Source of the DNA: a virus
DNA: 64,000 nucleotides
IMG/VR virus record: IMGVR_UViG_3300043411_002463
Span: 22,751 to 86,750 of that record
Reading direction: 5' to 3' (one strand)
Below are positions 2,068 through 24,840 of this stretch, piece by piece. A program made the position numbers and the translations under genes. Every line of letters begins with the position of its first letter. Position 1 is the stretch's first letter. A model generated the notes under the pieces. It did not search any database, was not told where the DNA came from, and saw only the letters and a list, made by a program, of their open reading frames with translations.

Positions 2068-4049
2068 GTGAAATGAGAACTGGTGTAAAAGCTGGAGTAC
2101 CTGTAAATGCCACTATAAGAAAATATAATGGTGATGGAACTGTATCATTATCAATAGATACCATTTCTTTAGGATTACCAAATTATGATATAGTTGCACC
2201 ATTACCAACAGCCTGGCTTGGTAATAATGCATTTTTAGCTGGTTATCCAGATGAAGGCACTACAGTTAAAATTATTCAAGGACATGGTGGTTCATGGACA
2301 ATTATTCAAGCATCTGGCTCCAATCAATTTATTAATGATTCAGATTTCGTTAAAAATACATTAGTAGGCAAAGTAAAAGATGGAAGTAAGTTTGTTTTAT
2401 CACCTAAAAGTGGAATATTTTTAGGTAAAGACAAAAACAACATCAAATTAAATCCAAATCAAGAATTATTAACAATAAATGTAGATTCAGAGTATACATT
2501 TACTAATTCACAAAGAAAAATATCTGGAAATATTAAAAGAGATTTAAGAGATACATCAAATAGAAATTTATTAACAATAGATTTAGATAATCATAAATAT
2601 GAATCTAATTTATTTGAAATATGTTTAGATCCGTCTTTAACTGCAAGTCATAGTACTGTTTTTGGTAATATAAGAAATTTACCACTTACAGAAACTAGAG
2701 AAATAGTATATGAATATTCAAATGATTATGATTTTATATCATTTAATGATGAATTAAATAGATACAAAGATACAAATTTTGTAAATGAAACAGAAAATTC
2801 TAGAAGAAAAAGTAGAACTGATGTTTTATCATTAAACTTAGAATATCCAAATTATTTAATTGAAAGTATTAAAGGTACAGTTGTAGATTTATTTGGAAAT
2901 ATATTGGATATTAATAAGAATATTCTTCCAATTGGTAAAGTGCCAGATTTATCATTGAAAGATTCTAAAAACGTAGAAAAAAACTATATTAATATTCAAA
3001 AAGAATTTAGAAAGAGTATAGCTTTTCATTGGGAAATGAATGCTAGAAAAGAATTAGGTGAAGAGCTTTTGCCTCCTAATCCAGATTTAAATTCAGATTA
3101 TTCTAGAAATAGAAGTAAGTTTGCCTTTACTATTGATAAAGAAGGTCAAATTAAATGGAATATACCAGCTTCTTCTGAAACAGGAAACATAGGTCTTTTA
3201 GTACGTGATGAAAATTATTCAACATTATTAAGTAAACAAAATTCTAATTTCAATCCAAATGATTTTGTTAAACCAGATGATTTTGTTGATATTTATTTGG
3301 ATAGTTTTGCTTCAAAATCTAGTATATTATTAAAATCAAATGATAATTTAGATGGTTATCAATCACCAACAGATAGAATTACTGGAAATGTAATTAAATT
3401 AGGAACAGCTTTTCATGATATTACTAAAGTAGTTTCTTCTTTTCAAAAAACTGCCCCATATTTGCAATCAAATATGAAATTAATTGATTTTGATCAAAAT
3501 AATAGACTAAATAAAACTTGGGTGCCTTTAGATAAGATAATTTCTGATACGATAATAGTTTCTGGAGAAGGAGCAAATGGTGGTGGAAGATCTGGAACAA
3601 TTTCTGCTGATGGTCACTTTTCAGTTTCTGTTGGAGCTAATACTATTGATCGACAATCTTTATTTATTGATTGTGCAGGTGGTGTTGTAGCTTCATACGG
3701 AAGAGATAAACAAGGTATCTCTATGGCTGCAAGCTATGATGGAGATGTTTATATGGAAATTGGCGGTACTGGTATTGGAAATTCTTATGATTCTAGATTT
3801 GCAAATCTAAATGATGCTTATAGAAATGGTTCTTTAGATATTAGAGTTCATATGAATGGTCAATTAGCTATATTAAAAATTGGACCAAATGGTATTGATA
3901 TAGTATCACCAGGTACTATGACATTTTCAAGTCAACAAGATATGATTTTTAGAAGTAATTCAAACTTATTGTTTGAAGGTGAAAATATTGTAATGCATGC
4001 TGAAACAACTAAGAGAATTGTTAATAAATACCCAAACAATACTATTTAA
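2064..4049 (+). CDS. Baseplate central spike protein (gp5/gpV-like)
   Basis: N-terminal OB-fold-like pattern (ATIRKYNGDGTVSL...PLP...AGYPDEGTTVKII) and C-terminal beta-helix-like repeats (LKIGPNGIDIVSPGTMTFSSQQDMIFRS). ATGA overlap with the hub gene. Confidence 0.6.
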   Translation: MSEMRTGVKAGVPVNATIRKYNGDGTVSLSIDTISLGLPNYDIVAPLPTAWLGNNAFLAGYPDEGTTVKIIQGHGGSWTIIQASGSNQFINDSDFVKNTLVGKVKDGSKFVLSPKSGIFLGKDKNNIKLNPNQELLTINVDSEYTFTNSQRKISGNIKRDLRDTSNRNLLTIDLDNHKYESNLFEICLDPSLTASHSTVFGNIRNLPLTETREIVYEYSNDYDFISFNDELNRYKDTNFVNETENSRRKSRTDVLSLNLEYPNYLIESIKGTVVDLFGNILDINKNILPIGKVPDLSLKDSKNVEKNYINIQKEFRKSIAFHWEMNARKELGEELLPPNPDLNSDYSRNRSKFAFTIDKEGQIKWNIPASSETGNIGLLVRDENYSTLLSKQNSNFNPNDFVKPDDFVDIYLDSFASKSSILLKSNDNLDGYQSPTDRITGNVIKLGTAFHDITKVVSSFQKTAPYLQSNMKLIDFDQNNRLNKTWVPLDKIISDTIIVSGEGANGGGRSGTISADGHFSVSVGANTIDRQSLFIDCAGGVVASYGRDKQGISMAASYDGDVYMEIGGTGIGNSYDSRFANLNDAYRNGSLDIRVHMNGQLAILKIGPNGIDIVSPGTMTFSSQQDMIFRSNSNLLFEGENIVMHAETTKRIVNKYPNNTI

Positions 4050-4063
4050 TAGATATACAATAA

Positions 4064-6166
4064 ATGCCTTGTACTCCTAATGATAATCAAATTAATGTCA
4101 CTCCAGGACCACCACCAACGGTTCCTGGTTTTGGCACAGTATCATCACCAGTACAAATACCAAATCCTGGGTTTGATTTACCATCTGAATTATTAGAAGA
4201 TTTTAATTCATTAATTTCTAGATTAAGTGCTATTTTTCCTAGCGGAATATTTAAACCTAATCCTGATTTTTCCATGAAGACAGTTTATGATTTTTTATCT
4301 GGAGTATTAACACAAATTGCTCCATTTTTAAGTTTGTATAATTTCTTTTTGGCTCTATTAAGAATTATTAAATGTATTATTGATATTTTATGTGCTATTC
4401 CAAATGTTTTTGCAGTCTCGCAAAAATTAGTAGTTTTATTTAAAGAATGTTTACCACCATTTTTGAATTTATATCCAGCTTTTGCTTTAGCAATAATGAT
4501 CATTTCTTTATTATTATTAATTCTTGCCTTAATTGAATATTTAATATCAACGATTTTTGCTATCATAGATTCTATTCTTAAAAATTTAGAAATATTTGAA
4601 AAAGCATCAACTCTAAATGATGCTCAAGGAACGTTAGCCGCCATTAACAAAATAGCTTCTTTGTTATGTTTTATTCAAAATTTAATGGCAATATTTGTTG
4701 CCTTTAGTGCCATAACATCTATTATTGAATCAATTGCTAAGTTTGCTGGTGTGGTATTTTGTGATGATTCAGATGAAGATGGTTGTTGTCCACCAACCTT
4801 ATGCCCACCATTTATTAAAAACACTCCAAACGGAATTACAGTTACCAATGGTAGGTTAGTTTATCTAAAAGAGATTTCTGCTGATTTAGCTTCTGAATTA
4901 TCTCCTGCCTTAGCTGCTGTTATTAAAATACCACCAGTTAGACAAGAACGCTGGCAAGTTTATGCAAGAGATTTATTGCCTGAATATACAATTGATAAAA
5001 TAATTACCCCAACCATTCCAGTATTTGGTACAAACTTTTGGGCAGATGCAGCAGTAATTACTAACAAAACTCCACCAAAACGTGCTCCATATACCGTCGA
5101 TGTTACACTTACAGCAAATCCAAAATTGTTAGGATTTTTAACTGATACAAAAGGTTCAAGAAAATTTATTATTAAAGATTGCATTGTAATAGAAGAACCA
5201 TTGAATGGTTATTTTGATTTCCAAAATGAAGAAACTAGTAATGTTAATGGAAGTTTAAGTATTGCTGGTGGTTTGGTATATGAAGAAGATGGAACTTCTT
5301 ATTTAATAAGTGGAAAGCAAGCTACATTAGAAACCTTTATTCACCAAGAAAAATCCACAGCAAATTCTGTTCCAGCATCAAGTGATAATGATGAAATCTT
5401 TTATGATATTTCGTTTGTTTGGAAGCCAAATAACCCAGCATTAGCAGGTTTTAATATTACTACTGCTGGTTGTACACCCGAAGTTTCTGTGGAGCGTGCT
5501 GTAATTAATTCTATTTTAACTACAGAAGGTATACAACCTTGGGAATTAAGATTACCTAATGTACCTGCTGGTGTAAAAGTTCCTTCTATTAACTTTTTGC
5601 CAAACATAAGCGGTACACAGGCTTGTATAGAAAATGCACTTGGTATCTTTAGAAAAAATGTTTCAGCACAAGGTGCTGCAGAATTCCAAGCTTCAGTCAC
5701 TGTTTGTTTAAATGATCTTAAAAATCAGACATCAGCTTCATTGTGTGCAACCTTATTGGCAGCCATTAGTCAATTTAAATCTACGTTTGATTTAGATACA
5801 GATTTACAATTTACTAATAAAAACATAGAGGTGTCTTTAACTTTGAAAGATGCATCTGGTACAGAGTTAACAAATAATATACCAGAGACATGTGCAAAAC
5901 AAATTGAAGAAAAATTAACTACAGAAATAACTTTTGGAAAAATTTCTGCCTTTAAATATGATGGTAGCAAATTATTTAAAGCAAATATAAGTTCAGATTC
6001 TGCAGGCTCCGGTAATATAAGGGTTTTGTATGACAATAAAGTCTTATCAGCATTATCAACAAATTCTGATAATCAAACCGTAATAGAAGAATATTCTTTG
6101 GATTATACATTCGTTGATTCAACAATTTCTTCACCAGTACGTCGTGATGAGACTGATTTAGGATAA
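4064..6166 (+). CDS. Virion/baseplate-associated protein with hydrophobic helices, Cys cluster and C-terminal Ig-like region
   Basis: Long hydrophobic stretch (FALAIMIISLLLLILALIEYLI), CDDSDEDGCCPPTLCP, and a beta-rich C-terminus (IEVSLTLKDASG...FKANISSDSAGSGNIRV). Lies inside the baseplate operon. Confidence 0.45.
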   Translation: MPCTPNDNQINVTPGPPPTVPGFGTVSSPVQIPNPGFDLPSELLEDFNSLISRLSAIFPSGIFKPNPDFSMKTVYDFLSGVLTQIAPFLSLYNFFLALLRIIKCIIDILCAIPNVFAVSQKLVVLFKECLPPFLNLYPAFALAIMIISLLLLILALIEYLISTIFAIIDSILKNLEIFEKASTLNDAQGTLAAINKIASLLCFIQNLMAIFVAFSAITSIIESIAKFAGVVFCDDSDEDGCCPPTLCPPFIKNTPNGITVTNGRLVYLKEISADLASELSPALAAVIKIPPVRQERWQVYARDLLPEYTIDKIITPTIPVFGTNFWADAAVITNKTPPKRAPYTVDVTLTANPKLLGFLTDTKGSRKFIIKDCIVIEEPLNGYFDFQNEETSNVNGSLSIAGGLVYEEDGTSYLISGKQATLETFIHQEKSTANSVPASSDNDEIFYDISFVWKPNNPALAGFNITTAGCTPEVSVERAVINSILTTEGIQPWELRLPNVPAGVKVPSINFLPNISGTQACIENALGIFRKNVSAQGAAEFQASVTVCLNDLKNQTSASLCATLLAAISQFKSTFDLDTDLQFTNKNIEVSLTLKDASGTELTNNIPETCAKQIEEKLTTEITFGKISAFKYDGSKLFKANISSDSAGSGNIRVLYDNKVLSALSTNSDNQTVIEEYSLDYTFVDSTISSPVRRDETDLG

Positions 6167-6167
6167 T

Positions 6168-7916
6168 ATGGTAGCCGATCTTGCAGCCGATAATAATTTT
6201 GAAGATTTGCAAACAGTTGATTCTGACATTGAGTCATTGTTTAAAAAATATATAGAGCCTATTGATCAACTAAGATCATATGCTAGACCAATTTTATCCG
6301 CAGATATAAGTAATACTAAAACTTTTGAAGATGTGTTATTGGAAGATTCTAAAAATTTAGAATCAAGCACTACAATTCCAATGGAAAGTAGAAGACATTG
6401 TTTTTATAGAATGTTGGGTTTGCCAGTATTGGATTCGCAAGGAAGGTTTTATAATCCTGGTTTTCCATTAAACTTAAATGTTAAAAGTCATAATGAAATA
6501 AACTCAGATATTTTTAAGAATTTAAAAGAATTACAATCATTTGTTTATTTGAATGAAAGAGAAATATTTGAAAATAAAAATGTTTATATAAACAAATCTA
6601 ATTATTTAGAAAATATTATAAGTAATGTTTTATATTCTTATGTAGGAAAATTTACTACATTTAAATTGTCAGAATCAGTTTATGATATTGATCAACAATC
6701 AAGTTTGATAAAAGAAAGAGAAGAAAAGGGTAATTTTTACGCCAAGTTAAATGGTGAATTAGAATTTGATAAAGAAATGTTAGATTTAGTTCAAAAATAT
6801 AAAACACAAAAACACGTGATTGTTCCTTTAATGGTAGATCCTAGATTAGTTAATACTGTTACACCAGATAATAATTTAGTTTGCATACCATTCTTAAAAG
6901 ATAAATCGCAAACAAAAATTAATAACTCAACTGAGCTATTAAGACCAGGATTGGAATTAATTATCAGACAAAGACTTGAAGATTATAAATTAGATAGTAA
7001 TTATTTGAAAACATTATCAAATATTTTGGTTGGAACGCCCCAGTCTTCTTATATTTCAGATGATGATTATCTTACTTTAAAAGCTACAGTAAGTGCATTT
7101 TATGATTTTTCAGCCAATGCTCAAGTATCAAAAATGTTACAAAAAATGTCGGCTACGGGAAATACTGGCGATGAAGAACTTCAAAATATTACAAACTTTC
7201 AATTTAAAACAGTAAATAAATTAATTAAAACATTAAAAGCATGTGTAAAAGATTTACAACAATCAATTTTATATATTGAAAAATTAAAAAGCAATATTAA
7301 TTGGGCACCACAAACCGGAGTAGACGGACCAAGTTCAAAAATAGATAATAAATTAAATTCTTTTATTAATATTTCTAGTAATAAATTAAATAATTCTTTA
7401 AAAGAATTGAAAATTAAAAAAGTTAGTGCAGAATTTAGGCAAAAGAATTTTGAAGATTTGGGTAGTTTTGCTTCTCCTTTTCATGATAATGATTTCTCAG
7501 AAAATATTAATTTTTATGATGATCAAATAAAAGATGTTAATAAAAAAATAGAACATTATTCTTCTTTGGGTTTTTCTGCATTGCGTAATATAGAATTAAT
7601 TACAGGTCAAGTTTCTGGATTTGGTCTTGTTGATGTATTGGCAATATACACTGCATTATGGTCAATTGATTTAAATGTATTAATTTCTTTATTGGATGAT
7701 AGTGCTTTTGAAAGATTGTATAATTACAATACAAACTATCAAGGAAACCAAGCAGTTTCATTTAGAAAAAACAATGGGTCAAAATACACTGGTGATAAAG
7801 CGATATCTTTATTGACGGAGAAATTATTTCAAACATTATCGTTTGTTGATTTTTATATGGATCATTTTGTTAAAAATTCTCCAGCTAATATAAATTCAAA
7901 TAATTTTGAAGGATAA
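6168..7916 (+). CDS. Hypothetical protein (probably structural)
   Basis: 582-aa ORF tightly packed between baseplate genes; no recognisable motif. Confidence 0.5.
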   Translation: MVADLAADNNFEDLQTVDSDIESLFKKYIEPIDQLRSYARPILSADISNTKTFEDVLLEDSKNLESSTTIPMESRRHCFYRMLGLPVLDSQGRFYNPGFPLNLNVKSHNEINSDIFKNLKELQSFVYLNEREIFENKNVYINKSNYLENIISNVLYSYVGKFTTFKLSESVYDIDQQSSLIKEREEKGNFYAKLNGELEFDKEMLDLVQKYKTQKHVIVPLMVDPRLVNTVTPDNNLVCIPFLKDKSQTKINNSTELLRPGLELIIRQRLEDYKLDSNYLKTLSNILVGTPQSSYISDDDYLTLKATVSAFYDFSANAQVSKMLQKMSATGNTGDEELQNITNFQFKTVNKLIKTLKACVKDLQQSILYIEKLKSNINWAPQTGVDGPSSKIDNKLNSFINISSNKLNNSLKELKIKKVSAEFRQKNFEDLGSFASPFHDNDFSENINFYDDQIKDVNKKIEHYSSLGFSALRNIELITGQVSGFGLVDVLAIYTALWSIDLNVLISLLDDSAFERLYNYNTNYQGNQAVSFRKNNGSKYTGDKAISLLTEKLFQTLSFVDFYMDHFVKNSPANINSNNFEG

Positions 7917-7917
7917 T

Positions 7918-8358
7918 ATGTCATATGATTTTAAAATAGAAAATGGTGATTGGCAAATTTCTTCAAGTGGAGATATTGAAAAAGTTGAAGATGAAAATAA
8001 GCTTATTCAAGATATTTTAAAGATTTGCATTTCAAAAAGAGGATCTAATAAGAATGCACCTTATTATGGAACTGTTTTAGGAGATATAGTTGGTTCTATA
8101 CCAGATAGACAATTTACTGAAACTTATGCTACTAATCAATTACAAGACGCATTGAAAATATTACAAAAATTGCAGCAATTACAAGAAACAACTCAGTTTG
8201 TTTCATTAAAAGAATCTTTAGCAGCTGTTAAAGAAGCTAGGGTTGTACAATCATTAACCGATCCAAGATTTTATGGTGTAAGAATAAAAGTATTAAATAA
8301 AAGCTTTTCTGAAGTTCAAACTGGGTTTGATATTAACCAGTCAGCTATTAATAAATAA
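7918..8358 (+). CDS. Baseplate wedge protein, gp25/GpW-like
   Basis: MSYDFKIENGD...KLIQDILKICISKRGS...PYYGT matches the gp25-like pattern. ATG at 7918 follows the upstream TAA and is preferred to the TTG at 7906. Confidence 0.75.
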   Translation: MSYDFKIENGDWQISSSGDIEKVEDENKLIQDILKICISKRGSNKNAPYYGTVLGDIVGSIPDRQFTETYATNQLQDALKILQKLQQLQETTQFVSLKESLAAVKEARVVQSLTDPRFYGVRIKVLNKSFSEVQTGFDINQSAINK

Positions 8359-8412
8359 TTTATATTGAGCATATTTTGCTATATTATTAGCTTTTAAAAT
8401 AGGGTAAAATTA

Positions 8413-11400
8413 ATGGCAAAAATTCGTTCAACCAGTGAAATAATAAGAGATTTTTTAGATTTTTATAGAGTTGCACAACCTGCACTAGATGTTAAACCAG
8501 GTAGTTCAGCTCGTGATGTATTGGTTGATGGACCATCTACTCAATTAGGAGTTTGCTATGACGAACTATCTAAGCTAAAAACAAACCTATCTCCAGTAAC
8601 CTCTTATGGTCAAAATTTTGAAAACTGGGCAAAAAACTTTGGAATAACAAAACCAACTGGTAAAAAAGCAACAGGCTTTGCTTTATTATTATTTAACAAT
8701 ATTGAAACAGACATTGCATTAAGAGCGGGGGATTTAGTTTATGCTAAAAACGGTTCATCATTTATTATTAAAAATTCTTTAGTATTAACTTCAACCAAAG
8801 AATCATATTATAAGTCAATAGTTAATAAATATAAATCAGATCTTGATACTCTCGGTTTTACAGAAATTTATGGAATTGAAGTTTTGGTTGAAGCTACTGC
8901 CACTGGAACTCAAGGTAATATTTCAAGATTTTCATTAAAAAGCACTAATATTACTGGAATTAATAGCATTACCAACGTATCACCTTTTTCTAATGGTAGT
9001 TCTGCTGCTTCTGATGCTAGTTTTAAAAACTATTTTATGGCATCATTTAATGGAAGCGTTTCTGGTACATCAGTTGGATATACAAATAAAGTTAAAGAAA
9101 ATTCAGCAGTTATTGACGTTGTTTCAGTTGAAAGTGGCGATGATTTGATGACAAGAGATGGTACTATAGTTTCTGTTGCAGAAAACGGCACAAGAACTAT
9201 TGTTTCAGATGGAACTGGTGGCAAAACTGATATTATTGTTTTAGGAGCAACCCTTCAACAAGGTACAGATTCTTATATTTACAAAGACAAATCAAACCAA
9301 GACGATCCAACTAATTCAAAAAATGATTATGTATTGGGACAAATATCAGGTGATGAAAACAAAACTTTCAATAAAAAAAGAAAAGATAATGTTAAGAAAG
9401 GAATTGTACCAAACCAGCCTGTATATAATTTGGTTTCTTTATCTGGCTCTTTATCTGGAAGTAATTTTAAAGAAAAAACAACAGATAATTTGGGAAGAGT
9501 ATCTGGAAATTATGAATTAGTTAAAGACACTGGTAGTTTTGCAGATTCAGTCTGGGGTTTTGATAAAATACATTTCATATCTAATAAAATATCAGATTTA
9601 CCAGAAGATAAAACTAAAGAGACATTTAATGGACAAGATCCATTAGGTTATACTGATTTGCTTGAAGTTAAAAAAATAACACAAAATATAGTTATTACAA
9701 ATGAAAATTCTCAAGTTCAATCAACTGATAAATCATACATTCAACTAAATCATTTTCCAGTATCTTCCGTAACTAGAGTTTTTAACGTTACAACTGGAGA
9801 AAGATACGTAGTAACTAGTCAAAATCCAGATGGCTCGGGTGAATTAAACGAAACTGGTAGAATAAAAATATCAGGTAAATCATTACCTGCCGTTAGTGAT
9901 ATTTTGCAAGTAGATTATGTTTGGAATTATTCATTTGACCCATATTGGGATTGTGATAATATTGTATTTTCAGATAATTATAGAGATGTAACTGATTCTA
10001 TTGATTGGGGTTATTCTAATTTAGTTAGAAGAGAATTATCTGTGCTTTCGACTTCAGGAAGTTATTTAAACGCCTCTGTTACACACAATATTTCTTCTGT
10101 AATTAAAGTTAATGTATTTTCTTCTGAAGAAACAACTGTAACATTAGTTTCTAATAGAAAAGCAATTGTATTGTCAAATACAATTTCAAACATAGAATCA
10201 GTTCAAAAAATTTCTAATAAATCAGAATTATGGAATACTATAAAAGATGATGGTACATTATCTGGGTTAACGGCTTATTTGCCTTCTGATACTATTGCTG
10301 AAGTTGGAGATGCTGTATCTGTTATTTATAATGCAACTGATGTATATGGAACTACAGGAACAGTATCAAACAATACAATAAACATTGTACCATCCGATTA
10401 TGCTACAGCAGGAACTTTAGTAGAATGTACCTATCTTGCTAATATAAATACTTTGTTACCAGCTACATCTTTAAGTAATTTACCAGTTATAAGAAATAAT
10501 AATCAATTTACATTAAATAATTTGGCAGTTTTGGGAAACCAACCAACAAGTCACTTATATGAAGATTCAATTGTTGTTAAAAACTTAAGATTAGCACCAT
10601 CTCATTTATTGTTGAATTTATTGGGTGCCGTATCAACTGGAGTTTTGACTGTAACTGGTACTTCTATTAAAAAAATAGAAAATGTCGTATTTACAGCTAG
10701 TAAAAATGGTTTAACTCAAGATTTATCTGCTGCCATTAAAAAATCTTTAGGTTTAACTAGTATAGAATCAATTTCTTCTAATATAAAAGTTTGTAGATTA
10801 GTTAAATTAGAAAAAATTAAAGCCAGTTCTGTCAGCGAATATATTTCTACAATTAATTCTTTTGATATTAAAGGTTATTATTTATTAGACAATACATTTA
10901 CTAAAAACGAAGCTGTTTATGATGTTAATTTAAGTAAAACACAAATAACACTACCATCAACGGAAAATAATATTGATAATACAATTTCAATTGGTGATAA
11001 GTTATTGGTAACTTGTTATATTTCTGAAGATTCAAGCTCAGAAAACATATATTTTAGCAAATCAGGAAGTATTTATACAAACAAAAAATATTTAACAATT
11101 GATAGTATCACTATTTCAAGCGGATTCAATTCTTCAAATGCATTAAATTCAGTGTTAACCATTAGTAACTTTAATCAACCATTAACTAAAAGCAGATATA
11201 AAGTTTATTACGATTATTTAGCACCAAAAACAAATGAAAGAATAACAATAAATTATAACTATAATAAATTAATTGGTGATTCACAATTAAACTTAGAAAA
11301 AACAATTCATTTAAATGATGATATATTAATTAAACAATGTGAAAATATTTTAGTAGATGTAACCATGAAGATTGTTATAGATGCAGATAGTTTAAACTTC

Positions 11401-11643: not shown

Positions 11644-11644
11644 A

Positions 11645-14600: not shown

Positions 14601-17600
14601 GATATAATTATTTGTTTAGAAACAAAATTAAAACAACTGGTGATTTGCAACTAGTACCAGGTAAATTTGACAATGGAGTTTTGGTATCAAATTCTGATGA
14701 TAGCATTTCTTTACCATTAAATTCTAACTTAAAATTAGAACAAGGGTCTTTAAAGTTTTGGGCAATTCCACAATGGGATGGAATTGATAACGATGCAGAA
14801 TTAACATTGTCTTTATATAAAAATGATGTTGCTTTAGATGCTAGCAAAATATTTATAGGTTCAAATTCATATAATCCAACTTTAAAAAACAATTCATTTT
14901 CAATTAGTAAAAGTGAAAATACTACGGGCTTGCCTGCCAAAATTTTTACAGAAACTGGTGTGTTTATTTATTATGATATTGATAATTCATGTTGGAAATT
15001 ATATTCAAAAGATTTAACATCATCTAGTTCAATTTATACTGGAACTATTGAAACAAACGGAGAGTTTTATAATTCAAAGTGGATTCCAGGGTTGAAAGAA
15101 TTGAATGATATTTTAAGAACATTTAATAATAAGATTGAGTTTAAGTTTAATATTGATTCTTCTGATGCAAGTTCGCCTGATGGATATGTAGATGGTTATT
15201 CATTAATTGACGGATATTCTCCAGCCGAAGGATATCAAGTTGGATATTCTTATGATGGTATTCAATTTATGTCAGATAAATATCATTATTTCTTTGATTT
15301 TGGTCAAGAAAAGAATAAAAATAGATTTTCTTTATTTAAAGATGGCTCTGGCTATTTAACTTTTAAAGTTATTGATAAAAACTCTACAGCTTCAACAGTA
15401 AGTTATGATGTTTCTGGTTGGAAAAATGGTGAAAAACATTTTATTGGTTTAAGTTGGCGCCTAAATTCATCTGATAATCGTGATGAAATGCATATGTTTG
15501 TTGATGGTTTTGAAGTGCCAAATATACTTTCTTATGGAAGCAGACCAGTATCAACATTAACAGATAGGTTTAGAACAGTTAAGCCAGAATATTTGTTAGC
15601 ATCATTAGAAAAAGATATATTGTTAAAAAATGATTTAACAACAACCGCGGGAAGTAATATTGTCACTGCTGTTACAAACTTTTCAGCATTTAATATTTCA
15701 CCCGGTGATAAAATTGAAATATTAGATCAAAATTTAGGTGAATTTATTATAGGTTCAATTTCTGGTCAACAATTGGCTCTTACAACCAATGTACCATCAA
15801 CCATTACAAATGCAAAATATACAATTAATCCATATTCTGTTCAAGTCAGTTCCCAAATATCTTTATATAAAAACATTATAGTTTCTTTGTTAAGAAACGG
15901 TGAAGAGATTGAATTAGCAGGATTAAATGCAAACACTCCAGGTTATGAAATAAGTCAAAATTTATTCAACCAAGATACTTTGAAAGTATTGGGAGATGCA
16001 TTAACTGGCGATCAATTAATTATCAGAACTTTAGGTAAAAACTTTAGAAGAATTAGAGAGAATACATATTTATGGAATTCTACTAATTTAATTAAAACAC
16101 AATTACCACCACCTATAAATCTAGATGAAGTTAATATTTATAAAATAATATTAAACAAAACAAGCATAGGACCAACAAATTCAACCTTAAGTCTAGGAGT
16201 ATTTACTTCTAATATGTTGACTTGTCAACAAACAACAAATTCAACTGAAGGTCGAACTTTAGAAGTTACTATTGTTGGTGGAAATACTGATTTTACAACT
16301 CCTGTAACTGTAACTATTAATGGTACTACAAATGGAGTCCCAGTCTTTGAAACATTAACTTTTAGCGAAGCAGGAACACAAAAAACTGCTCTAAAATTCA
16401 AAACAATTACTGGAACACAAGTAATTTGTAAACCATATAATACATCAAAAAACTCTGTAGTAGTTTCAATAAAAGAAGCTTATTCTGTGATTTATCCAGA
16501 TGCAAATACAAGCTATCCCGTGTTAAGATTTGTTTATAAAACACAACATGGAACTTCATTGCAAGGAGATGGTTCTACAACTGTAGTTGATAGTAGTGGA
16601 TATTTTATTGATTCTAATATAGATCAAGCTTTAGTAATAACATCTCCAGGTTCGGTTGCTGGAACATACAATATAGAATCCAGAAGTGATACAAATACAA
16701 TTGTTTTAGATAATCCAACTGGAACAGCTTTTACCAGTGGAATTTATGATATTTATAACATTTCATTATCGAGATCTGGTTTCCAAAATGGTTACTTTTA
16801 CTTCCAGACAGCTGGTGGAGTTAATGAAAATTATAATTTACCATCTGGAGATTATTTGTTTGATTATTCAACATATTTATCTTTGAAGTTCGATCCAATT
16901 AGACAGGAACAAATTTATATAGGTTCAGATTTCAATAAAGAAAAACAAGCCAATGCAGTTATTGATGAATTGCATATACTAGATGTAATGCTTTCAGATG
17001 TTCGTGTTGGAGAAAGTGCCAAACAATCTTTTACAACAGATTTTACTAAACTAAGACCAGTCAAAAAAGACAAAAACACATTACTGTTATTGAATTTTGA
17101 TGAAAAACCATTTGTTAATAAGGCAGATTTTTGGGTAAATTCAAGCAAGCAATATTTACAATCTGATTTTTCAGTCAATGAAAAATTTGACAAATGTTTA
17201 GTTATAAATGATAAACCTTTAGTGATTGAAAATAAAGGATATTTAACAACAAAATCTGAAGGAACTATTGAGTTTTGGGTTTCACCAAAATATGATACAG
17301 GTAATGATCCAGTAAGAAGATATTATTTTGATGCCAGCTCTTCTTTAAGTACAGAAATTCAAAGTACAAGCAAAGCAACAATTATTCTACCAACAAAAAT
17401 AAAAGAAATATTATCTGTTAAGGTTAAAAATGGAGAGGTAGAGTATTCTGATGGCGCAACCATTGCGGCTGATGGTAAAACAATTAATTTAAAGAAACAA
17501 TTACCATATCAAAAGACAAATGTTGTAGTTTCTTATATTCAACATGGAACGAATGGTGATAGATTATCAATCTTTAAAGATTCAGATGGATTTATAACCT

Positions 17601-18256
17601 TTTATGTTAGTGCTTCTGGTTATGAATATGAAGTTCGTCAACCTATTTTCTGGGAAAGAGATAGCTGGCATAGAATAAAAGCAACTTTCAAATTCAACAG
17701 AAAAGATAATAAAGATGAAATTAGACTTTTTGTTGATGGGGAAGAACGTGGTACTATAAGGTTCGGTCAAGGCTTCTTGTTTAGCGAAAGCATTATATTC
17801 GGTCAAGGCTTTGTAGGAGTTAACAATTCTATATTAATTGATGATATTAACTTTAAAGATTCAATTAATGAATTTTATATTGGTTCTGATTTTGCAAAAG
17901 CAAGTAAGTCTCATTGTAGAATTGATAATTTCAAAATTAGTAATAAAGCTAAAAATGGCTTTTTGATTGCTGGTCAATATAAGGATGTAAATTATAGTTC
18001 TAATTTAGACATCATTTATCCATCTATTGAAGACTTGTACACAACTTATTTATTAGATTTTAACAAAATATTTGAAAAAAATACTGATTTTACCTTACTT
18101 CATGACCCATATTATGGAATTTTTAATTTCAAAATTAACATAATTGATTCTTTTAAAGTTCTAGCTAATGACATCATTGCTAAAAACATGTTGGAAGCAG
18201 CTTTAAAGGCATTTAAGCCAAGTAAATCTAAAATGACGCTCAATTATCTAACATAA
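11645..18256 (+). CDS. Giant baseplate/tail protein (2203 aa) with GpI/gp7-like segment and two LamG/concanavalin-A-like domains
   Basis: LFANFGSLI...YRSVLQGILQMFPTGPTKEALGNMV is GpI-like. Paired motifs GSLKFW/GTIEFW, FSLFKDGSGYLTF/LSIFKDSDGFITF, MFVDG/LFVDG and YIGSD...IDEL/IDNF are LamG-like. Follows baseplate J. Confidence 0.65.
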   Translation: MAILSIKKYSLVSPTKIRIEFSDSVNALINTSNFNIVSNNSSFSNPILYNVKVNKNIVDLTVSPLYSYNIYSLYCLDGNIKFSNINSTLFLPNNNSTNVIKFIGPVDSENQFRTNLIRDLSNNVYSLEDGNLITDTINIIADQINKLYNDIKQTGNEIFLEKIIENEKKVRGIGPTDALNEKGAYKIIKVSKEIEGTVKVKEQEISEMPASPITLQAVTISQEKLISGTSNSTFNGLLLTLAKNNVTKVKTITIKYFNGSTYSYSIESLGYTIKDNRYDQEYASSYQLLESNQVQLSTLLLEDENFTVLTSLDYILITYEYKNVGQTIVEDSVDVYYIEYQSSEVISPIVTTFALKYYPVVDSLGNIIKKDGVSFLDPEANPPFSSTHPAFTTELEFNLESLPKTFGEYTINYETGEVIVYGAIKNDGTGDFPPLATYYYKFSYDNELDYIYDNQNYEVVRSPIRDLEGESVTIACQYYQNLIENEDFIANIHKEVINERIENRLLSNTSLRVQNPGVTNVFRIYNETSGEIYKLDRFNNDKVYFNVNNSPRVEKISQERCSFTTVDNEIVLVQEEYLNANNIKIFEIHLNNSLIISATEDSIGSSFNSSVSFSNSNIFGKEIYFSSAISLDNNIDRLDLNQYQIDYNNGIIYLATDSVDYQLGTVNYKKSFIKTGQDNIISVDKIYSSIDNINIDKVYNFSSYSAFEITFTNLEESDERFDSYGNLYIYDSNTVLVKDDIKSIRGLYDHSDLLTNDSPINFAENCTFDANLIQVNEIFKQEQYTVESGLVININQASVGIDLNSVISVKRISDDTELYTGSSSFVNYQITLDALSGAVAGDEIVVIYGLLPNGSFGVVVDYDRGELFVDYTYLFDEILVTYEYGSDSLDFAQSTTLNTGDEYYVTYKVGSLRDTLFANFGSLIDVNIIKNFNTEVDREIYRSVLQGILQMFPTGPTKEALGNMVKSVTHIFPEIIEAAFEIWSLGYNYLFRNKIKTTGDLQLVPGKFDNGVLVSNSDDSISLPLNSNLKLEQGSLKFWAIPQWDGIDNDAELTLSLYKNDVALDASKIFIGSNSYNPTLKNNSFSISKSENTTGLPAKIFTETGVFIYYDIDNSCWKLYSKDLTSSSSIYTGTIETNGEFYNSKWIPGLKELNDILRTFNNKIEFKFNIDSSDASSPDGYVDGYSLIDGYSPAEGYQVGYSYDGIQFMSDKYHYFFDFGQEKNKNRFSLFKDGSGYLTFKVIDKNSTASTVSYDVSGWKNGEKHFIGLSWRLNSSDNRDEMHMFVDGFEVPNILSYGSRPVSTLTDRFRTVKPEYLLASLEKDILLKNDLTTTAGSNIVTAVTNFSAFNISPGDKIEILDQNLGEFIIGSISGQQLALTTNVPSTITNAKYTINPYSVQVSSQISLYKNIIVSLLRNGEEIELAGLNANTPGYEISQNLFNQDTLKVLGDALTGDQLIIRTLGKNFRRIRENTYLWNSTNLIKTQLPPPINLDEVNIYKIILNKTSIGPTNSTLSLGVFTSNMLTCQQTTNSTEGRTLEVTIVGGNTDFTTPVTVTINGTTNGVPVFETLTFSEAGTQKTALKFKTITGTQVICKPYNTSKNSVVVSIKEAYSVIYPDANTSYPVLRFVYKTQHGTSLQGDGSTTVVDSSGYFIDSNIDQALVITSPGSVAGTYNIESRSDTNTIVLDNPTGTAFTSGIYDIYNISLSRSGFQNGYFYFQTAGGVNENYNLPSGDYLFDYSTYLSLKFDPIRQEQIYIGSDFNKEKQANAVIDELHILDVMLSDVRVGESAKQSFTTDFTKLRPVKKDKNTLLLLNFDEKPFVNKADFWVNSSKQYLQSDFSVNEKFDKCLVINDKPLVIENKGYLTTKSEGTIEFWVSPKYDTGNDPVRRYYFDASSSLSTEIQSTSKATIILPTKIKEILSVKVKNGEVEYSDGATIAADGKTINLKKQLPYQKTNVVVSYIQHGTNGDRLSIFKDSDGFITFYVSASGYEYEVRQPIFWERDSWHRIKATFKFNRKDNKDEIRLFVDGEERGTIRFGQGFLFSESIIFGQGFVGVNNSILIDDINFKDSINEFYIGSDFAKASKSHCRIDNFKISNKAKNGFLIAGQYKDVNYSSNLDIIYPSIEDLYTTYLLDFNKIFEKNTDFTLLHDPYYGIFNFKINIIDSFKVLANDIIAKNMLEAALKAFKPSKSKMTLNYLT

Positions 18257-18260
18257 TAAT

Positions 18261-21197
18261 ATGACTATAAGACCAGACGTTTCTTTGATTAAAAATAATT
18301 TTCGAGACTCTTTGCAAATCTCTCAAACTGAATTGCAAGTAGAGCAAGATTACTATGATGGAAAAATCAAATCAGTAATTGATAATCATATAGGCTCTGG
18401 TGTATTATTAGAATCTCTTACAGATAATATAATTTTTAACTCAGATGAATTAACAGAAGTTCAAACTGGTTATATTTCTTCTAATACCTTCGACGGACGT
18501 GGTATTAGCCCACTAGTCCAACCCACAGATGTTAATTTAGGAAATCAACTTGAAATAACATTGTCTGAGTCAAGTGCTGTTGGTAGACATAGTGTAAAAA
18601 TTTCAATTGTTGGTCTTGATTTTAATGGAGAATTAATTCAAGAAAAGTTTTATTTTTATACTAATGAAACTCAAGTAACTTCAAAACATTTTGCTAAAGT
18701 TTTATCTCTATTTTTTAATGATTTCAAAGGAAATGATAATTGTTCTAGAAATTTGGGCGGAACTATAGTTATTAAAGAATCTAAATCTTTCCAAATATCT
18801 AGAGACCCAATTATGATAGCTCAAGATGTTGAGCCGGATTTTTTTTGGCGCGATTTTAAGAAATATACTATATCTTTAACTTTGGAACAAGTTATTCAAG
18901 AAGGCATTGGTTCTGAATATTCAGTTGATGGTTTGAATATCAATACTACTGGTATTAGCAATCAAGAACTTTTAGCTAATGATGTATCTTCTCAAATTGG
19001 TGAGAAATTTTATGCAAATACAGATAATATTCAAAAAATAACTATGTTATTGTCTGTATCATCAGATGATAGTGCTGCAGAAGCAAACAAATATGATTGG
19101 TCAGGAGATCTTGTAATTTCAGTATATAAATTACAAACCAGTGTACTGTGTGATGCTGATATTATTCCAGATTTAGCAATTGATTTTGATCCAAATCCAG
19201 TTTCATTAGCACAAGTTTCTTTTAATCAAGCATCACTTAAAGAAAATGGTTATGTTTTAACAGATGTATTGCAACCAGTTGATTTTGTATTCAGTGATAG
19301 TAAAATTGGTAAGGCTAGTGGAGTTGAGGTAGGAAAATATTATGCCGTTTCTATTCAAAGAAATGGCTCTGCTGCTACTGGAAATATTTACATAGGAACT
19401 GGCAATAACAATTCAGTTTATAATAGATTAACTGTATTTTCTGGAACAGAATGGGTTGATGTCGAAGATTCTTCTATTTGGTATCAAGTTTGGACTGATG
19501 CAATTAAAATAACTTCCGGAAAAGGTTATGATTCTGGTACAGGAATTCAAATTGATAAAACAAAACAAATAGTTGATAGTTCATCAGCTAGCATTGCAAT
19601 TGTTGATAATGAAGAAAAAAATTATTCATTCAGTGATACTGGTTTTAACACTGTTAATATTGCATTAGTTCAAGCCGTATTAGAATTAACATCTGAAGAA
19701 CAAGATCAATTAACTGGAAATTATGTTGAATCAAAAAATAAATATAATCCAGCATTAAGTTTAATTTCTCAATCAGAATTAACAACATTACAAACAACAA
19801 GCAATCCATTTATAGTTGGTTGTGTAAAAGATGTTAATCCAAAATTAAATTCAACCTTAGAAAAAACTTATTCAATTCCAGGATTGGCACGGGGAGATAA
19901 TTTTTGTATATTAAATCCAGATGCTGATCTAATCTCTTTAAATTTAGTAGGAAGTGTATTAACTCCAAACAAAGATACTAACTTTAAATACAAAATTGTC
20001 AAAGCTACATATTGTACAGATGGTTATGGTGATGTTAATGGCGATGGCGAAATTGATGATCTGGACATTACATTAGCAACATCATTAATAGGAGAAAGTT
20101 TATATTTTTCAAGTACAGTTAATAAAATTAATGATGGTACTATTGATGTTTTACAATTATTAAGAGCTGACGTTGATAATGATGGTTATGTAACTTCAAA
20201 TGATGTTGATGCAATTACAAGCTATGTAAACAAGTTAGTTAATTCATTTACAGCGGGTACTTCATTCTCTCATATGTGTTTAGAAGTACAGCCATTAACT
20301 GGTAGATTTGATGGCTATTATGATTGTACAGATGGATATGTTAGATTAGATGGCTATGGACAAGTGGGTTCTATTTCGACTGGAGAATTATCAACCGAAG
20401 AAATTTTGTATCAAGGAAGTAATGTCGTTCCTATTTTACAACTAGACTCAACTTTAACAGTGGTTCCATTTGTTTCAAAAACATTTCAAATAACGCCAAA
20501 ACCATATTGGCAGCCTTGGCAATTGCTATTGTCTAGCTCTGCTCGATATGTACAAGCTAGTTTTACCTATGCAGATTCTCTTACTGAACGTTCTTGTAGC
20601 ACAACAGCAGCCTCATTATGTTCTGCTCAATTTACCGATGTACCAACTGTAGAACCTGGTAGAAATGATACTTTAATTCCAGGCAATATCATTATTGATA
20701 AAGGTGCTCTATTAAATCTTGATGGAACTTTATATAAACAAGATTTAGAGATTAAGACAATTGAGTTGCGTTTACCAATCACAGAATTATCAGAATCTAA
20801 AATAAACATTTTTGAGAAGTTATTGGTTGATAAGGGTGACGGCAAAACGTTTGCTGAGTATCCTGCTGCTAAATACTATGATTGTTCAACTGTTCAACCA
20901 GAAGATTTGGCGCTAAATAAAGTGAAATTTGAAGTTGCTATTCAATCCATTTATAAAGTTGTTGATGGCTATGATTCAAGTTACGAATATGTCGTAATTA
21001 ATAATCCAAACATTGGTGTAAAGATGGATAATTCTACTGGAATTTTAACACTAAATGTTTCCGATGTTGACTTGGACAATATTAAAGAAACTTTAATTAC
21101 AAAAATTTCAGTTAATATTTATTTAAAGAAAGCTGGATTTAACAACACACATCTTATAATTCCGCCTGAATCTATAGCTGGATTAATTTCTAGCTGA
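18261..21197 (+). CDS. Virion structural protein with type-I dockerin-like duplicated Ca-binding repeat
   Basis: YGDVNGDGEIDDLDITLA ... RADVDNDGYVTSNDVDAI. Last gene of the structural block. Confidence 0.6.
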   Translation: MTIRPDVSLIKNNFRDSLQISQTELQVEQDYYDGKIKSVIDNHIGSGVLLESLTDNIIFNSDELTEVQTGYISSNTFDGRGISPLVQPTDVNLGNQLEITLSESSAVGRHSVKISIVGLDFNGELIQEKFYFYTNETQVTSKHFAKVLSLFFNDFKGNDNCSRNLGGTIVIKESKSFQISRDPIMIAQDVEPDFFWRDFKKYTISLTLEQVIQEGIGSEYSVDGLNINTTGISNQELLANDVSSQIGEKFYANTDNIQKITMLLSVSSDDSAAEANKYDWSGDLVISVYKLQTSVLCDADIIPDLAIDFDPNPVSLAQVSFNQASLKENGYVLTDVLQPVDFVFSDSKIGKASGVEVGKYYAVSIQRNGSAATGNIYIGTGNNNSVYNRLTVFSGTEWVDVEDSSIWYQVWTDAIKITSGKGYDSGTGIQIDKTKQIVDSSSASIAIVDNEEKNYSFSDTGFNTVNIALVQAVLELTSEEQDQLTGNYVESKNKYNPALSLISQSELTTLQTTSNPFIVGCVKDVNPKLNSTLEKTYSIPGLARGDNFCILNPDADLISLNLVGSVLTPNKDTNFKYKIVKATYCTDGYGDVNGDGEIDDLDITLATSLIGESLYFSSTVNKINDGTIDVLQLLRADVDNDGYVTSNDVDAITSYVNKLVNSFTAGTSFSHMCLEVQPLTGRFDGYYDCTDGYVRLDGYGQVGSISTGELSTEEILYQGSNVVPILQLDSTLTVVPFVSKTFQITPKPYWQPWQLLLSSSARYVQASFTYADSLTERSCSTTAASLCSAQFTDVPTVEPGRNDTLIPGNIIIDKGALLNLDGTLYKQDLEIKTIELRLPITELSESKINIFEKLLVDKGDGKTFAEYPAAKYYDCSTVQPEDLALNKVKFEVAIQSIYKVVDGYDSSYEYVVINNPNIGVKMDNSTGILTLNVSDVDLDNIKETLITKISVNIYLKKAGFNNTHLIIPPESIAGLISS

Positions 21198-24835: not shown

Positions 24836-24840
24836 ATTTC

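What the first reader, a model, noticed from the sequence alone, without database searches (positions are those of the whole stretch)
3351..20972. Recurrent Asp-Gly-Tyr (DGY) motif restricted to virion proteins: candidate modification sequon
Seen: 10 DGY tripeptides, all in three structural proteins. One is in the spike (3351). Three are in a tight cluster in the 2203-aa protein (PDGYVDGYSLIDGYSPAEGYQVGYSYDG, 15179-15259, with EGY/VGY variants). Six are in the 978-aa protein (20019, 20181, 20310, 20331, 20349, 20964, including FDGYYDCTDGYVRLDGYG). By eye I found none in the roughly 50 non-structural proteins. Codons vary (GAT/GAC, GGA/GGT/GGC), so the repeat appears to be kept at the protein level. 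The 15179 cluster lies within an insertion in a LamG-like domain. Inference: it may be the acceptor tag for the glycosyltransferases encoded immediately downstream (Tyr O-glycosylation is known from some bacterial S-layer proteins), or a docking or cross-linking motif. Caveat: two of the copies belong to the dockerin repeat.
Basis: partly seen in the sequence, partly recalled or inferred. Interest (0 to 1): 0.78.

Follow-up and report, generated by a model that had tools for sequence, protein, structure and literature searches.

The report
DGY tag on huge-phage outer proteins
The outward-facing tail and baseplate proteins of this uncultured huge phage and its relatives carry the tripeptide Asp-Gly-Tyr about ten times more often than chance, mostly in surface loops, which looks like an undescribed tag, perhaps a sugar-attachment site, although no modification has been shown.

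Summary
All 10 DGY lie at the stated coordinates, and the other 57 window ORFs have none. The window is part of an 86.75-kb phage record. That record holds 25 DGY, all in the 21 ORFs before the glycosyltransferase (GT) island (2.5 expected). The 53 later ORFs have 0.

DGY is the most over-represented of 8000 tripeptides (P 6e-17), and no shuffle comes near it. The signal is at the protein level: 25 of 25 DNA motifs are in frame and the codons follow background use. It recurs across a clade of ~400-kb phages: 424 observed against 53 expected, and 535 against 32. Two unrelated myoviruses, T4 and phage G, lack it.

It is exact: DGF, NGY, EGY and DGW are not enriched like DGY. It is confined to the sheath and peripheral proteins and absent from tube and tape measure. 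New copies arise in loop insertions.

A GT4-like gene follows the last DGY-rich gene in 57 of 58 loci. A Tyr glycosylation tag is my leading reading (about 0.4), but it is unproven, and I found no DGY-free genome to test co-variation. This scan had already noted the same motif on other genomes.

The parts
18261..21197 (+). 978-aa peripheral baseplate protein with a dockerin. It has 6 DGY, at residues 587, 641, 684, 691, 697 and 902.
   Evidence: Dockerin_1 at residues 589-657. Foldseek matches phi812 baseplate chains at E 9e-7, with low TM; the 120 best homologues average 8.6 DGY per protein against 0.22 expected, with about 10 conserved DGY columns.
20310..20357 (+). Tight cluster of three DGY (residues 684, 691, 697) in the 978-aa protein.
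   Evidence: In the AF2 model it is mostly coil; the 10-residue blocks here average pLDDT 55-66, and residues 699-702 are below 50. DGY is kept in 115, 106 and about 100 of the 120 homologues at these columns.
20019..20189 (+). Dockerin-like segment carrying two DGY (residues 587 and 641).
   Evidence: In one search a PDB profile search hits dockerins and cohesin-dockerin entries. Residue 641 sits in a D-x-D-x-D-G-Y calcium-loop context.
20964..20972 (+). DGY at residue 902 of the 978-aa protein.
   Evidence: It is kept in 118 of 120 homologues. In the model it is coil, next to a segment with pLDDT below 50 at residues 905-912.
11645..18256 (+). 2203-aa peripheral baseplate or fibre protein with 3 DGY and two LamG-like regions.
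   Evidence: The orthologues carry 3, 3, 10, 5 and 6 DGY in five genomes.
15179..15259 (+). Tandem xGY array (three DGY plus one EGY and one VGY) in a loop of variable length.
   Evidence: In the alignment with two orthologues this loop is shorter in both and the DGY positions shift.
3351..3359 (+). Single DGY in the 661-aa protein (2064-4049). It is probably a background occurrence.
   Evidence: It is shared with only 1 of 2 aligned orthologues. The orthologous group has 2 DGY in 3334 aa.
1..2067 (+). C-terminal part of the 1618-aa protein I take to be the tape measure. No DGY.
   Evidence: 0 DGY in 8233 aa over five genomes. The role is inferred from its size and its position after the tube and chaperone genes.
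4064..11643 (+). Inner baseplate genes that are DGY-poor: 700 aa, 582 aa, a gp25-like 150-aa sheath initiator, and a gp6-like 1076-aa wedge protein.
   Evidence: Sheath_initiator, phrog_2669, phrog_6; 4/3497, 0/2223, 0/723 and 3/5673 DGY per aa over five genomes.
21212..22297 (+). GT4-like glycosyltransferase, the first gene after the last DGY-rich gene. It is a candidate reader of the motif.
   Evidence: Glycos_transf_1 at 24.2 bits, below the 26.4 cut-off; the nearest Atlas clusters are viral GT1/GT4. An orthologue lies downstream in 57 of 58 loci.
22288..23912 (+). Two GT2 glycosyltransferases (253 aa and 294 aa) that form the conserved core of the island.
   Evidence: Glycos_transf_2, E 2.7e-19 and 1.4e-9. 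Each is present in 32 of 37 full-length GT4-anchored loci.
23909..31683 (+). Variable remainder of the GT island: a third GT2, a CgeB-like GT, a PglD-like acetyltransferase and unknown genes.
   Evidence: Presence ranges from 0 to 22 of 37 loci within the 10-kb flank.

Best explanation
DGY is a real, protein-level, lineage-specific short motif displayed on the outward-facing virion proteins of a clade of ~400-kb myovirus-like phages. The carriers are the sheath insertion domain, large neck or fibre-like proteins and peripheral baseplate proteins.

The mechanism I think most likely is inferred, not shown. The Tyr hydroxyl, presented after an Asp-Gly turn, would be the acceptor of a sugar added in the cytoplasm by the phage's own soluble glycosyltransferases. 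These are encoded directly after the last DGY-rich gene. A conserved GT4-like enzyme or one of the two GT2 enzymes would start the chain. The variable rest of the island would then build a lineage-specific glycan, so that the outside of the tail is sugar-coated.

Shown: the enrichment, its exactness, its restriction to particular proteins, its location in loops, its gain in insertions, and the neighbouring GT core.

Inferred: that Tyr is modified, that the modification is a glycan, and which enzyme does it.
For: ENRICHMENT
- This record: 25 against 2.5 expected, rank 1 of 8000, P 6e-17.
- Two relatives: 24 against 2.35 and 45 against 2.8, both rank 1.
- 69 sheath-anchored loci: 424 against 52.8.
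- 47 GT4-anchored loci: 535 against 31.7 upstream, 19 against 22.6 downstream.
- 71 distinct homologues of the 978-aa protein: 363 against 16.

PROTEIN-LEVEL SELECTION
- 25 of 25 DNA motifs are in frame 0 and none is in frames 1 or 2.
- Codons follow background use in five genomes with GC from 28% to 40%.

CHEMICAL EXACTNESS
- Observed/expected ratios are DGY 16x, DGF 1.9x, DGW 0.13, NGY 0.58, EGY 0.26 and DAY 0.5. Pro never follows DGY (0 of 521 contexts).
- In the listed substitutes at the conserved columns of 120 homologues, DGF never appears. This suggests the hydroxyl matters.

LOCATION
- 0 DGY in tube, chaperone, the presumed tape measure and three other inner-tail or baseplate proteins, 18,129 aa over five genomes. 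The sheath and peripheral proteins carry 1.6 to 8.4 per 1000 aa.
- In two AF2 models (pLDDT 84 and 86) the copies sit in coil or at strand ends.
- The sheath core aligns to solved sheaths at Z 33.5 over about 320 of 809 residues, so the DGY copies probably lie in extra domains.
- A homologous beta-domain in two small phage contigs lacks exactly the two DGY loops.

TURNOVER
- 20 of 28 single-lineage DGY columns lie within 3 columns of an indel, against 31% background (P 1.4e-5).
- Tandem DGY runs appear in insertions.

ENZYMES
- A GT4-like orthologue lies downstream in 57 of 58 loci.
- GT4 plus two GT2 form a conserved core and the rest of the island varies.
- No Wzy_C-type transferase occurs in 5 of 5 related genomes. 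This fits stepwise cytoplasmic addition.
- No Pkinase or Sulfotransfer_3 occurs in 5 of 5. This weakens phage-encoded phosphorylation or sulfation.
Against: - There is no direct evidence of any modification.
- The GT island could instead serve DNA or host-envelope glycosylation. All NCBIfam hits lie far below their cut-offs and are polysaccharide-type.
- There is no natural experiment. Every genome I reached has both the motif and the GTs, so the adjacency may be synteny alone.
- Lineage L326/L337 has three small ORFs in place of the GT4-like gene yet keeps the motif: 6 DGY in the homologue and 8 upstream.
- Many sites are very strongly conserved, up to 118 of 120 homologues. That is more typical of structural or binding residues than of glycosylation sites.
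- Non-virion proteins do not avoid DGY: 0/1.65, 1/1.76, 4/2.89 and 19/22.6 observed/expected. A promiscuous cytoplasmic transferase might be expected to select against it.
- No GT8 (glycogenin-type) enzyme is present in 5 of 5 related genomes.
- Solvent exposure could not be computed because no model coordinates were available.
Confidence: 0.4

Rival explanations
1. DGY is an unmodified structural or assembly element. It would be a tight Asp-Gly turn followed by a Tyr whose hydroxyl makes a conserved hydrogen bond, ion contact or inter-subunit contact. This local building idiom would have spread through the outer-protein domains of the clade.
For: - Conservation at many sites is very high, 100-118 of 120 homologues.
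- The sheath copies lie in confidently modelled turns just before strands (pLDDT about 90).
- A hydrophobic or aromatic residue is favoured before DGY and Gly after it.
- One copy is a genuine dockerin calcium-loop residue.
- T4 late proteins show a mild 3-fold excess (6 against 2.0).
Against: - NGY, an equally good turn, is depleted (0.58), and DGF is only 1.9x.
- The homologous domain folds without the DGY loops in two other phages.
- New copies appear mostly in insertions and as tandem runs.
- Beta-rich inner baseplate proteins do not use it (3 in 5673 aa and 0 in 2223 aa).
- The phage G tail block shows no excess (2 against 1.83).
Confidence: 0.28
2. DGY loops are many weak binding sites on the virion surface. 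The Asp carboxylate and the Tyr ring would bind a host-surface or environmental glycan or an ion. Together they would give multivalent, reversible adhesion before the specific receptor step.
For: - The motif is restricted to the sheath and peripheral proteins.
- It multiplies in loops and tandem runs.
- It neighbours LamG-like and dockerin modules that are themselves binding domains.
Against: - Trp, the usual sugar-stacking residue, is strongly disfavoured (DGW 0.13).
- A three-residue site is small for a binding pocket.
- No ligand is indicated by any search.
Confidence: 0.12
3. DGY marks another chemical event. Candidates are a host-enzyme modification of Tyr (phosphate, sulfate, nucleotide), oxidative Tyr-Tyr cross-linking, or spontaneous Asp-Gly isomerisation used as a clock or cross-link.
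For: - The strict need for Asp-Gly and for Tyr rather than Phe.
- Asp-Gly is the sequence most prone to succinimide formation (my own knowledge).
- This record has a kinase-like ORF inside the structural module (Pkinase E 5.7e-8).
Against: - The kinase-like ORF has no orthologue in four relatives, and Pkinase is absent from 5 of 5 related genomes.
- Sulfotransfer_3 is absent from 5 of 5.
- Cross-links between sheath subunits would hinder contraction (inference).
Confidence: 0.1
4. The pattern is chance, amino-acid composition, or a DNA-level repeat.
For: On the window alone the excess is modest and clustered: 10 against 3.07, in 6 clusters.
Against: - Rank 1 of 8000 in three genomes, at P 6e-17, 1e-16 and 7e-38.
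- The maximum in 2000 shuffles is 9 against 25 observed.
- All copies are in frame with background codon use.
- The pattern is replicated over about 200 loci.
Confidence: 0.01

Closest known systems
Virion glycosylation of mycobacteriophages by phage-encoded glycosyltransferases (Freeman et al. 2023). I saw it only as cited passages in PMC12619734 and PMC12582341. The paper itself is not held.
   Same: A phage encodes GTs, and the virion proteins themselves are the proposed targets.
   Different: In that system the glycans are reported at the C-termini of the capsid and tail-tube subunits (passage). Here the tube has no DGY (0 in 1048 aa) and the motif lies in internal loops of the sheath and peripheral proteins. 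No modification has been shown here.
Short bacterial glycosylation sequons: Bacteroidota O-glycosylation D-(S/T)-(A/I/L/V/M/T) and Campylobacter N-glycosylation D/E-X-N-X-S/T. Both motifs are recalled; neither comes from a call.
   Same: A three- to five-residue motif that begins with an acidic residue and contains the acceptor. Here Pro never follows the motif (0 of 521 contexts).
   Different: Those systems transfer lipid-linked glycans outside the cytoplasm. Here the acceptor would be Tyr, transfer would be cytoplasmic, and no Wzy_C-type transferase is present (0 of 5 genomes).
Tyrosine O-glycosylation of S-layer proteins in Paenibacillus alvei and Thermoanaerobacter (review PMC2943079; passages read).
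   Same: A sugar on a Tyr hydroxyl of a surface-array protein. The linkage is described there as chemically more stable.
   Different: The review text holds neither 'sequon' nor 'consensus' (0 occurrences each) and reports only two to four sites per protein. The transfer is proposed to occur during secretion by an O-oligosaccharyltransferase. No phage is involved.
Type I dockerin calcium-binding loops.
   Same: The copy at residue 641 lies within the Pfam Dockerin_1 match and the copy at 587 abuts its start. The copy at 641 is loop positions 5-7 of a D-x-D-x-D-G-Y loop.
   Different: This accounts for 2 of the 25 copies in the record. The other contexts show no D-x-D-x-D pattern.

Membership tests
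Protein glycosylation sequon (general) | A short, exact motif containing a hydroxyl or amide acceptor, over-represented in target proteins | tested here: met
   DGY is 10-17x over expectation in outer virion proteins only, and single-residue variants are not enriched to match.
Protein glycosylation sequon (general) | A glycan demonstrably attached at the motif | not testable with these tools
   This needs virion mass spectrometry or glycan staining.
Protein glycosylation sequon (general) | A dedicated transferase that co-occurs and co-varies with the motif | tested here: inconclusive
   A GT4-like orthologue lies downstream in 57 of 58 loci. No motif-free genome was found, and one lineage keeps the motif without the GT4-like gene in its slot.
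Protein glycosylation sequon (general) | Motif accessible on the folded protein | tested here: inconclusive
   The copies lie in coil or turn positions in two AF2 models, and the loops are dispensable in a homologous domain. Solvent exposure could not be computed.
Mycobacteriophage-type virion glycosylation | Phage-encoded GT genes | tested here: met
   The GT island starts 14 nt after the 978-aa gene.
Mycobacteriophage-type virion glycosylation | Glycans on the C-termini of capsid and tail-tube subunits | tested here: not met
   The tube orthologues have 0 DGY in 1048 aa, and the motif lies in internal loops. The capsid protein was not identified.
S-layer-type Tyr O-glycosylation | Wzy_C-family O-oligosaccharyltransferase (the family assignment is recalled) | tested here: not met
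   PF04932 is found in 0 of 5 related genomes, 4 of them at least 96% complete. The control search rang in 9 of 14 known genomes.
Glycogenin-type Tyr glucosylation | GT8 enzyme | tested here: not met
   PF01501 is found in 0 of 5 related genomes.
Dockerin type I | Pfam Dockerin_1 match above the gathering score | tested here: met
   32.5 bits against a cut-off of 22.9, residues 589-657 of the 978-aa protein. A PDB profile search hits dockerins.
EF-hand-like D-x-D-x-D-G loop as the general context of DGY | Acidic residues at positions -4 and -2 relative to the Asp | tested here: not met
   Of the 25 contexts in the record, by eye only the dockerin copy at residue 641 shows it. Over 521 contexts, Asp at -4 is only 1.6x and is not enriched at -2.

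The most novel reading that the evidence does not exclude
DGY is a tyrosine O-glycosylation sequon read in the cytoplasm by soluble phage glycosyltransferases. The whole exterior of these huge-phage tails (sheath, fibres, baseplate periphery) would then be coated with a phage-specified, lineage-variable glycan. This would be a virus-encoded protein glycosylation code with its own three-residue sequon, unlike any described bacterial or viral system.
Probability: 0.35. Interest if true: 0.9.

Novelty: new variant of a known kind. Interest (0 to 1): 0.78.

Why it matters
If DGY is a modification tag, it defines a new, easily searchable protein sequon. It would also give a function to the large glycosylation islands of huge phages, whose targets are unknown. 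It would imply that these phages disguise or functionalise the outside of their tails. That bears on host recognition, on particle stability in sediment and soil, and on evasion of host or grazer recognition.

Even if no modification exists, a single tripeptide enriched 10-17-fold and confined to outer virion proteins across a whole clade is an unusual evolutionary signal. It also offers a practical way to predict which unannotated proteins of these phages sit on the particle surface.

The idea is directly testable by mass spectrometry of virions. It could also be tested by co-expressing one DGY-rich domain with the three core GTs.

Tried and rejected
DNA-LEVEL MOTIF: rejected. All 25 plus-strand copies are in frame 0, there is 1 on the minus strand, and codon use matches background.

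COMPOSITION OR CHANCE: rejected by all-tripeptide ranking and shuffles.

GENERAL PROPERTY OF MYOVIRUS TAIL PROTEINS: rejected. The T4 late block has 6 against 2.0 (rank 67) and the phage G tail block 2 against 1.83.

GENERAL CALCIUM-LOOP CONTEXT: rejected.

PHAGE KINASE AS WRITER: rejected. The kinase-like ORF of this record has no orthologue in four relatives, and Pkinase is absent from 5 of 5 related genomes. Sulfotransferase, Wzy_C and GT8 are likewise absent.

CO-VARIATION OF MOTIF AND GT: attempted, not achieved.
- The representatives search found homologues of the 978-aa protein with 0 DGY in at least five places of the tree.
- Scans of IMG/VR with alignments of these DGY-free proteins returned only genomes that still have DGY in neighbouring proteins and still have the GTs.

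- 42 are clearly this clade (436 against 29.7).
- A few more are short pieces of clade contigs.
- The rest show little beyond the ascertained pair.
- L287 (6 against 0.96) is a weak possible exception that I did not follow.

ANNOTATION: PHROG and Pfam annotation of the head-module proteins of a complete relative led nowhere, so I cannot say whether the major capsid protein carries DGY. NCBIfam naming of the island enzymes gave only hits far below cut-off. The phage database holds no relative of the 978-aa protein.

LITERATURE: 'DGY motif' gave 0 papers. DGY + phage + tail gave 1 unrelated paper. Supplementary files were not consulted.

POST-HOC BOUNDARY: for relative G002 I chose the 'structural' boundary (at or beyond 74 kb) after seeing the DGY list.

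ROWS DROPPED:
- 67 of 72 sheath hits were full length; identical ones were merged to 60.
- 56 of those 60 were aligned. I left out four that run off their contigs.
- 84 loci, of which 4 had no full homologue ORF and duplicates were merged, leaving 71.
- only orthologous groups with at least 4 of 5 genomes and a length ratio of 0.7-1.4.
Full report
WHAT THE WINDOW IS. The window is the last 64 kb of an 86,750-nt IMG/VR virus record, which CheckV rates 8% complete. GC is about 29%. Nearly all genes are on the plus strand.

The first 21 kb of the window is the end of a contractile-tail structural module:
- a gp25-like sheath initiator (7906-8358) and a gp6-like wedge protein (8413-11643);
- a 2203-aa protein with a LamG-like domain (11645-18256);
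- a 978-aa protein with a dockerin (18261-21197).

A glycosyltransferase island starts 14 nt later. It holds a GT4-like gene, three GT2 genes, a CgeB-like GT and a PglD-like acetyltransferase. The 22.7 kb upstream of the window holds the sheath (phrog_2839), the presumed tube, the presumed tape measure and several very large unannotated proteins. Relatives reach 409-459 kb and are rated 96-100% complete, so this is a fragment of a huge phage.

THE OBSERVATION. On the window alone the excess is modest: 10 against 3.07, 1 of 2000 shuffles reaches 10, and the copies form only 6 clusters.

The rest of the record changes the picture. It holds 15 more DGY, all in large virion proteins. That gives 25 in the 21 ORFs before the GT island (14,427 aa, 2.5 expected) and 0 in the 53 ORFs after it (14,048 aa, 1.65 expected). 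Among all 8000 tripeptides DGY ranks first at P 6e-17; the runner-up is at 2.5e-5. In 2000 within-protein shuffles the maximum was 9.

The DNA motif GAYGGNTAY occurs 25 times on the plus strand, always in frame 0, and once on the minus strand. Codon choice at the three positions follows each genome's background in five genomes with GC from 28% to 40%. The signal is therefore in the protein.

REPLICATION.
- The sheath found two relatives. In both, DGY is again rank 1 in the structural block: 24 against 2.35 and 45 against 2.8. It is unremarkable elsewhere: 1 against 1.76 and 4 against 2.89. For the second relative I set the block boundary after seeing the list.
- A sheath profile found 69 further loci with 424 DGY against 52.8 expected.
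- 47 loci anchored on the GT4-like gene have 535 against 31.7 in the 10 kb upstream and 19 against 22.6 downstream.
- 71 distinct homologues of the 978-aa protein carry 363 against 16.
- The 120 closest database homologues average 8.6 per protein against 0.22 expected.
- In two complete genomes the copies pile up in the structural block. In the 409-kb genome, by the 10-kb bins, 46 of 62 lie between 40 and 120 kb.
- The T4 late block (6 against 2.0, rank 67) and the phage G tail block (2 against 1.83) do not show it.
- A collection-wide scan for tandem DGYDGY returned mainly this clade.

ANATOMY OF THE MOTIF. It is exact. Within DGY-bearing proteins the observed/expected ratios are DGY 16, DGF 1.9, DGW 0.13, NGY 0.58, EGY 0.26, DAY 0.5 and DSY 1.0. 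Pro never follows it (0 of 521 distinct contexts) and Gly follows it 3.3 times more often than expected. These counts include related sites, so they are not independent. At the conserved columns of the 978-aa family the listed substitutes never include DGF. That is unusual for a purely structural Tyr.

It is confined to particular proteins. Over five genomes:
- The 533-aa, 978-aa, 263-aa, sheath, 2203-aa, 1705-aa and 1151-aa groups carry 1.6 to 8.4 per 1000 aa.
- Tube, chaperone, presumed tape measure, the 681-aa, 277-aa and 582-aa proteins and the gp25-like protein carry 0 in 18,129 aa.
- The gp6-like wedge carries 3 in 5673 aa.
- The 661-aa 'spike' carries 2 in 3334 aa.

That the DGY-rich set is the outer shell of the particle is my inference from the known architecture of contractile tails.

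STRUCTURE. The AF2 model of the 978-aa protein (pLDDT 83.7) puts the 684-697 cluster and the 902 copy in coil with low local confidence. It puts 587 at the end of a strand before the dockerin and 641 in the second dockerin loop.

The sheath model (pLDDT 86.1) puts its copies in confidently predicted turns just before strands of an N-terminal beta domain. Only about 320 of 809 residues align to solved sheaths (Z 33.5), so roughly 490 residues are extra domains.

That beta domain also occurs in a 396-aa tail protein of two small phage contigs. There the core is conserved, but the two DGY-bearing loops are missing as 8- and 7-residue gaps. Those contigs have no DGY excess and no GT. The loops are thus additions, not part of the fold.

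EVOLUTION. In three-way alignments 11 DGY columns are shared by all, 8 by two and 30 by one genome. In four- and five-way alignments 20 of 28 single-lineage columns lie within 3 columns of an indel, against a 31% background (P 1.4e-5). Only 1 of 5 universal columns does. Several gains are tandem runs in small insertions. The window's array at 15179-15259 is such a loop: it is longest here and shorter in both orthologues.

It sits just before residues 1224-1290. These are 39% identical (E 4e-11) to the Pfam LamG region at 1958-2046.

THE ENZYMES NEXT DOOR. The GT4-like gene lies within the downstream flank in 57 of 58 distinct loci that have at least 4 kb of downstream sequence. It and two GT2 genes form a conserved core (37, 32 and 32 of 37 loci). 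The rest of the island varies.

The exception, L326/L337, has three small ORFs in the GT4 slot. It keeps both GT2 genes and keeps the motif. A homologue that has lost all its DGY (L336/L351) is still followed by the GT4-like gene, and its upstream neighbours still carry 4 against 0.66.

I found no genome without the motif. The co-loss of motif and GT reported in earlier notes of this scan therefore could not be tested here.

Across five related genomes, four of them at least 96% complete, there is no Pkinase, Sulfotransfer_3, Wzy_C or GT8.

READING. The facts call for something that needs an Asp-Gly turn and a Tyr hydroxyl, on loops of the outer particle, where more copies seem to be better. 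A cytoplasmic Tyr O-glycosylation tag read by the adjacent soluble GTs fits best, and I give it about 0.4.

An unmodified structural or contact motif fits the very high conservation of many sites and gets about 0.28. Weak multivalent binding sites get 0.12. Other chemistry gets 0.1.

Non-virion proteins do not avoid DGY.

COMPARISON WITH WHAT IS KNOWN. Virion glycosylation by phage GTs is known from mycobacteriophages, at the C-termini of capsid and tube subunits. I saw this only as cited passages. Tyr O-glycosylation is known from S-layers, and the review passages I read contain no mention of a sequon or consensus site. Neither matches in acceptor context or machinery.

I found no paper on a DGY motif in phages. 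The same motif had been noted by this scan on at least six other genomes. That is not independent evidence, but it agrees with a clade-wide distribution.

Noticed in passing
G000 record 1673-2626, upstream of the window (L002:1673-2626): A protein-kinase-like ORF (Pfam Pkinase, E 5.7e-8) sits inside the structural module between two DGY-rich genes. It has no orthologue in four relatives, and Pkinase is absent from five related genomes.
   Followed up: partly
window 11645-18256: The 2203-aa protein holds two LamG-like regions. Residues 1224-1290 are 39% identical (E 4e-11) to the Pfam-detected one at 1958-2046. The first copy escapes Pfam.
   Followed up: partly
L087:7846-9036 and L088:7098-8288: The beta domain inserted in the huge-phage sheath also occurs in a 396-aa protein just after a large ORF (869 or 748 aa) in two small phage contigs. 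There it lacks both DGY loops.
   Followed up: partly
L337:13562-14692 (also L326): One lineage has three small ORFs (146, 76 and 68 aa) where the GT4-like gene normally sits. Both GT2 genes and the DGY excess are kept.
   Followed up: partly
DGY contexts across the clade: Cys is enriched before the motif (5.0x at -6, 3.8x at -2), as in C-x-D-G-Y. These counts come from related sites and may reflect a few conserved positions.
   Followed up: no
G000 structural ORFs: DGT is the second most over-represented tripeptide in this record's structural proteins (16 against 4.6). It is not in the top 8 of the two relatives.
   Followed up: no
G001, ORFs after 45.6 kb: LTH is strongly over-represented in the non-structural part of one relative (12 against 0.98, P 7e-10). 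This is probably a repeated domain.
   Followed up: no
L091:2460-5792 (G004): A 1110-aa protein in the head-side module is built of repeats matching phrog_3532 (7 stretches, E 1e-231), function unknown. It has no DGY.
   Followed up: no
L287:188-4852: A 1554-aa protein on a contig with no BLAST similarity to the clade carries a triple tandem DGY run plus one more copy. The contig as a whole has 6 against 0.96. It may be an independent case.
   Followed up: no
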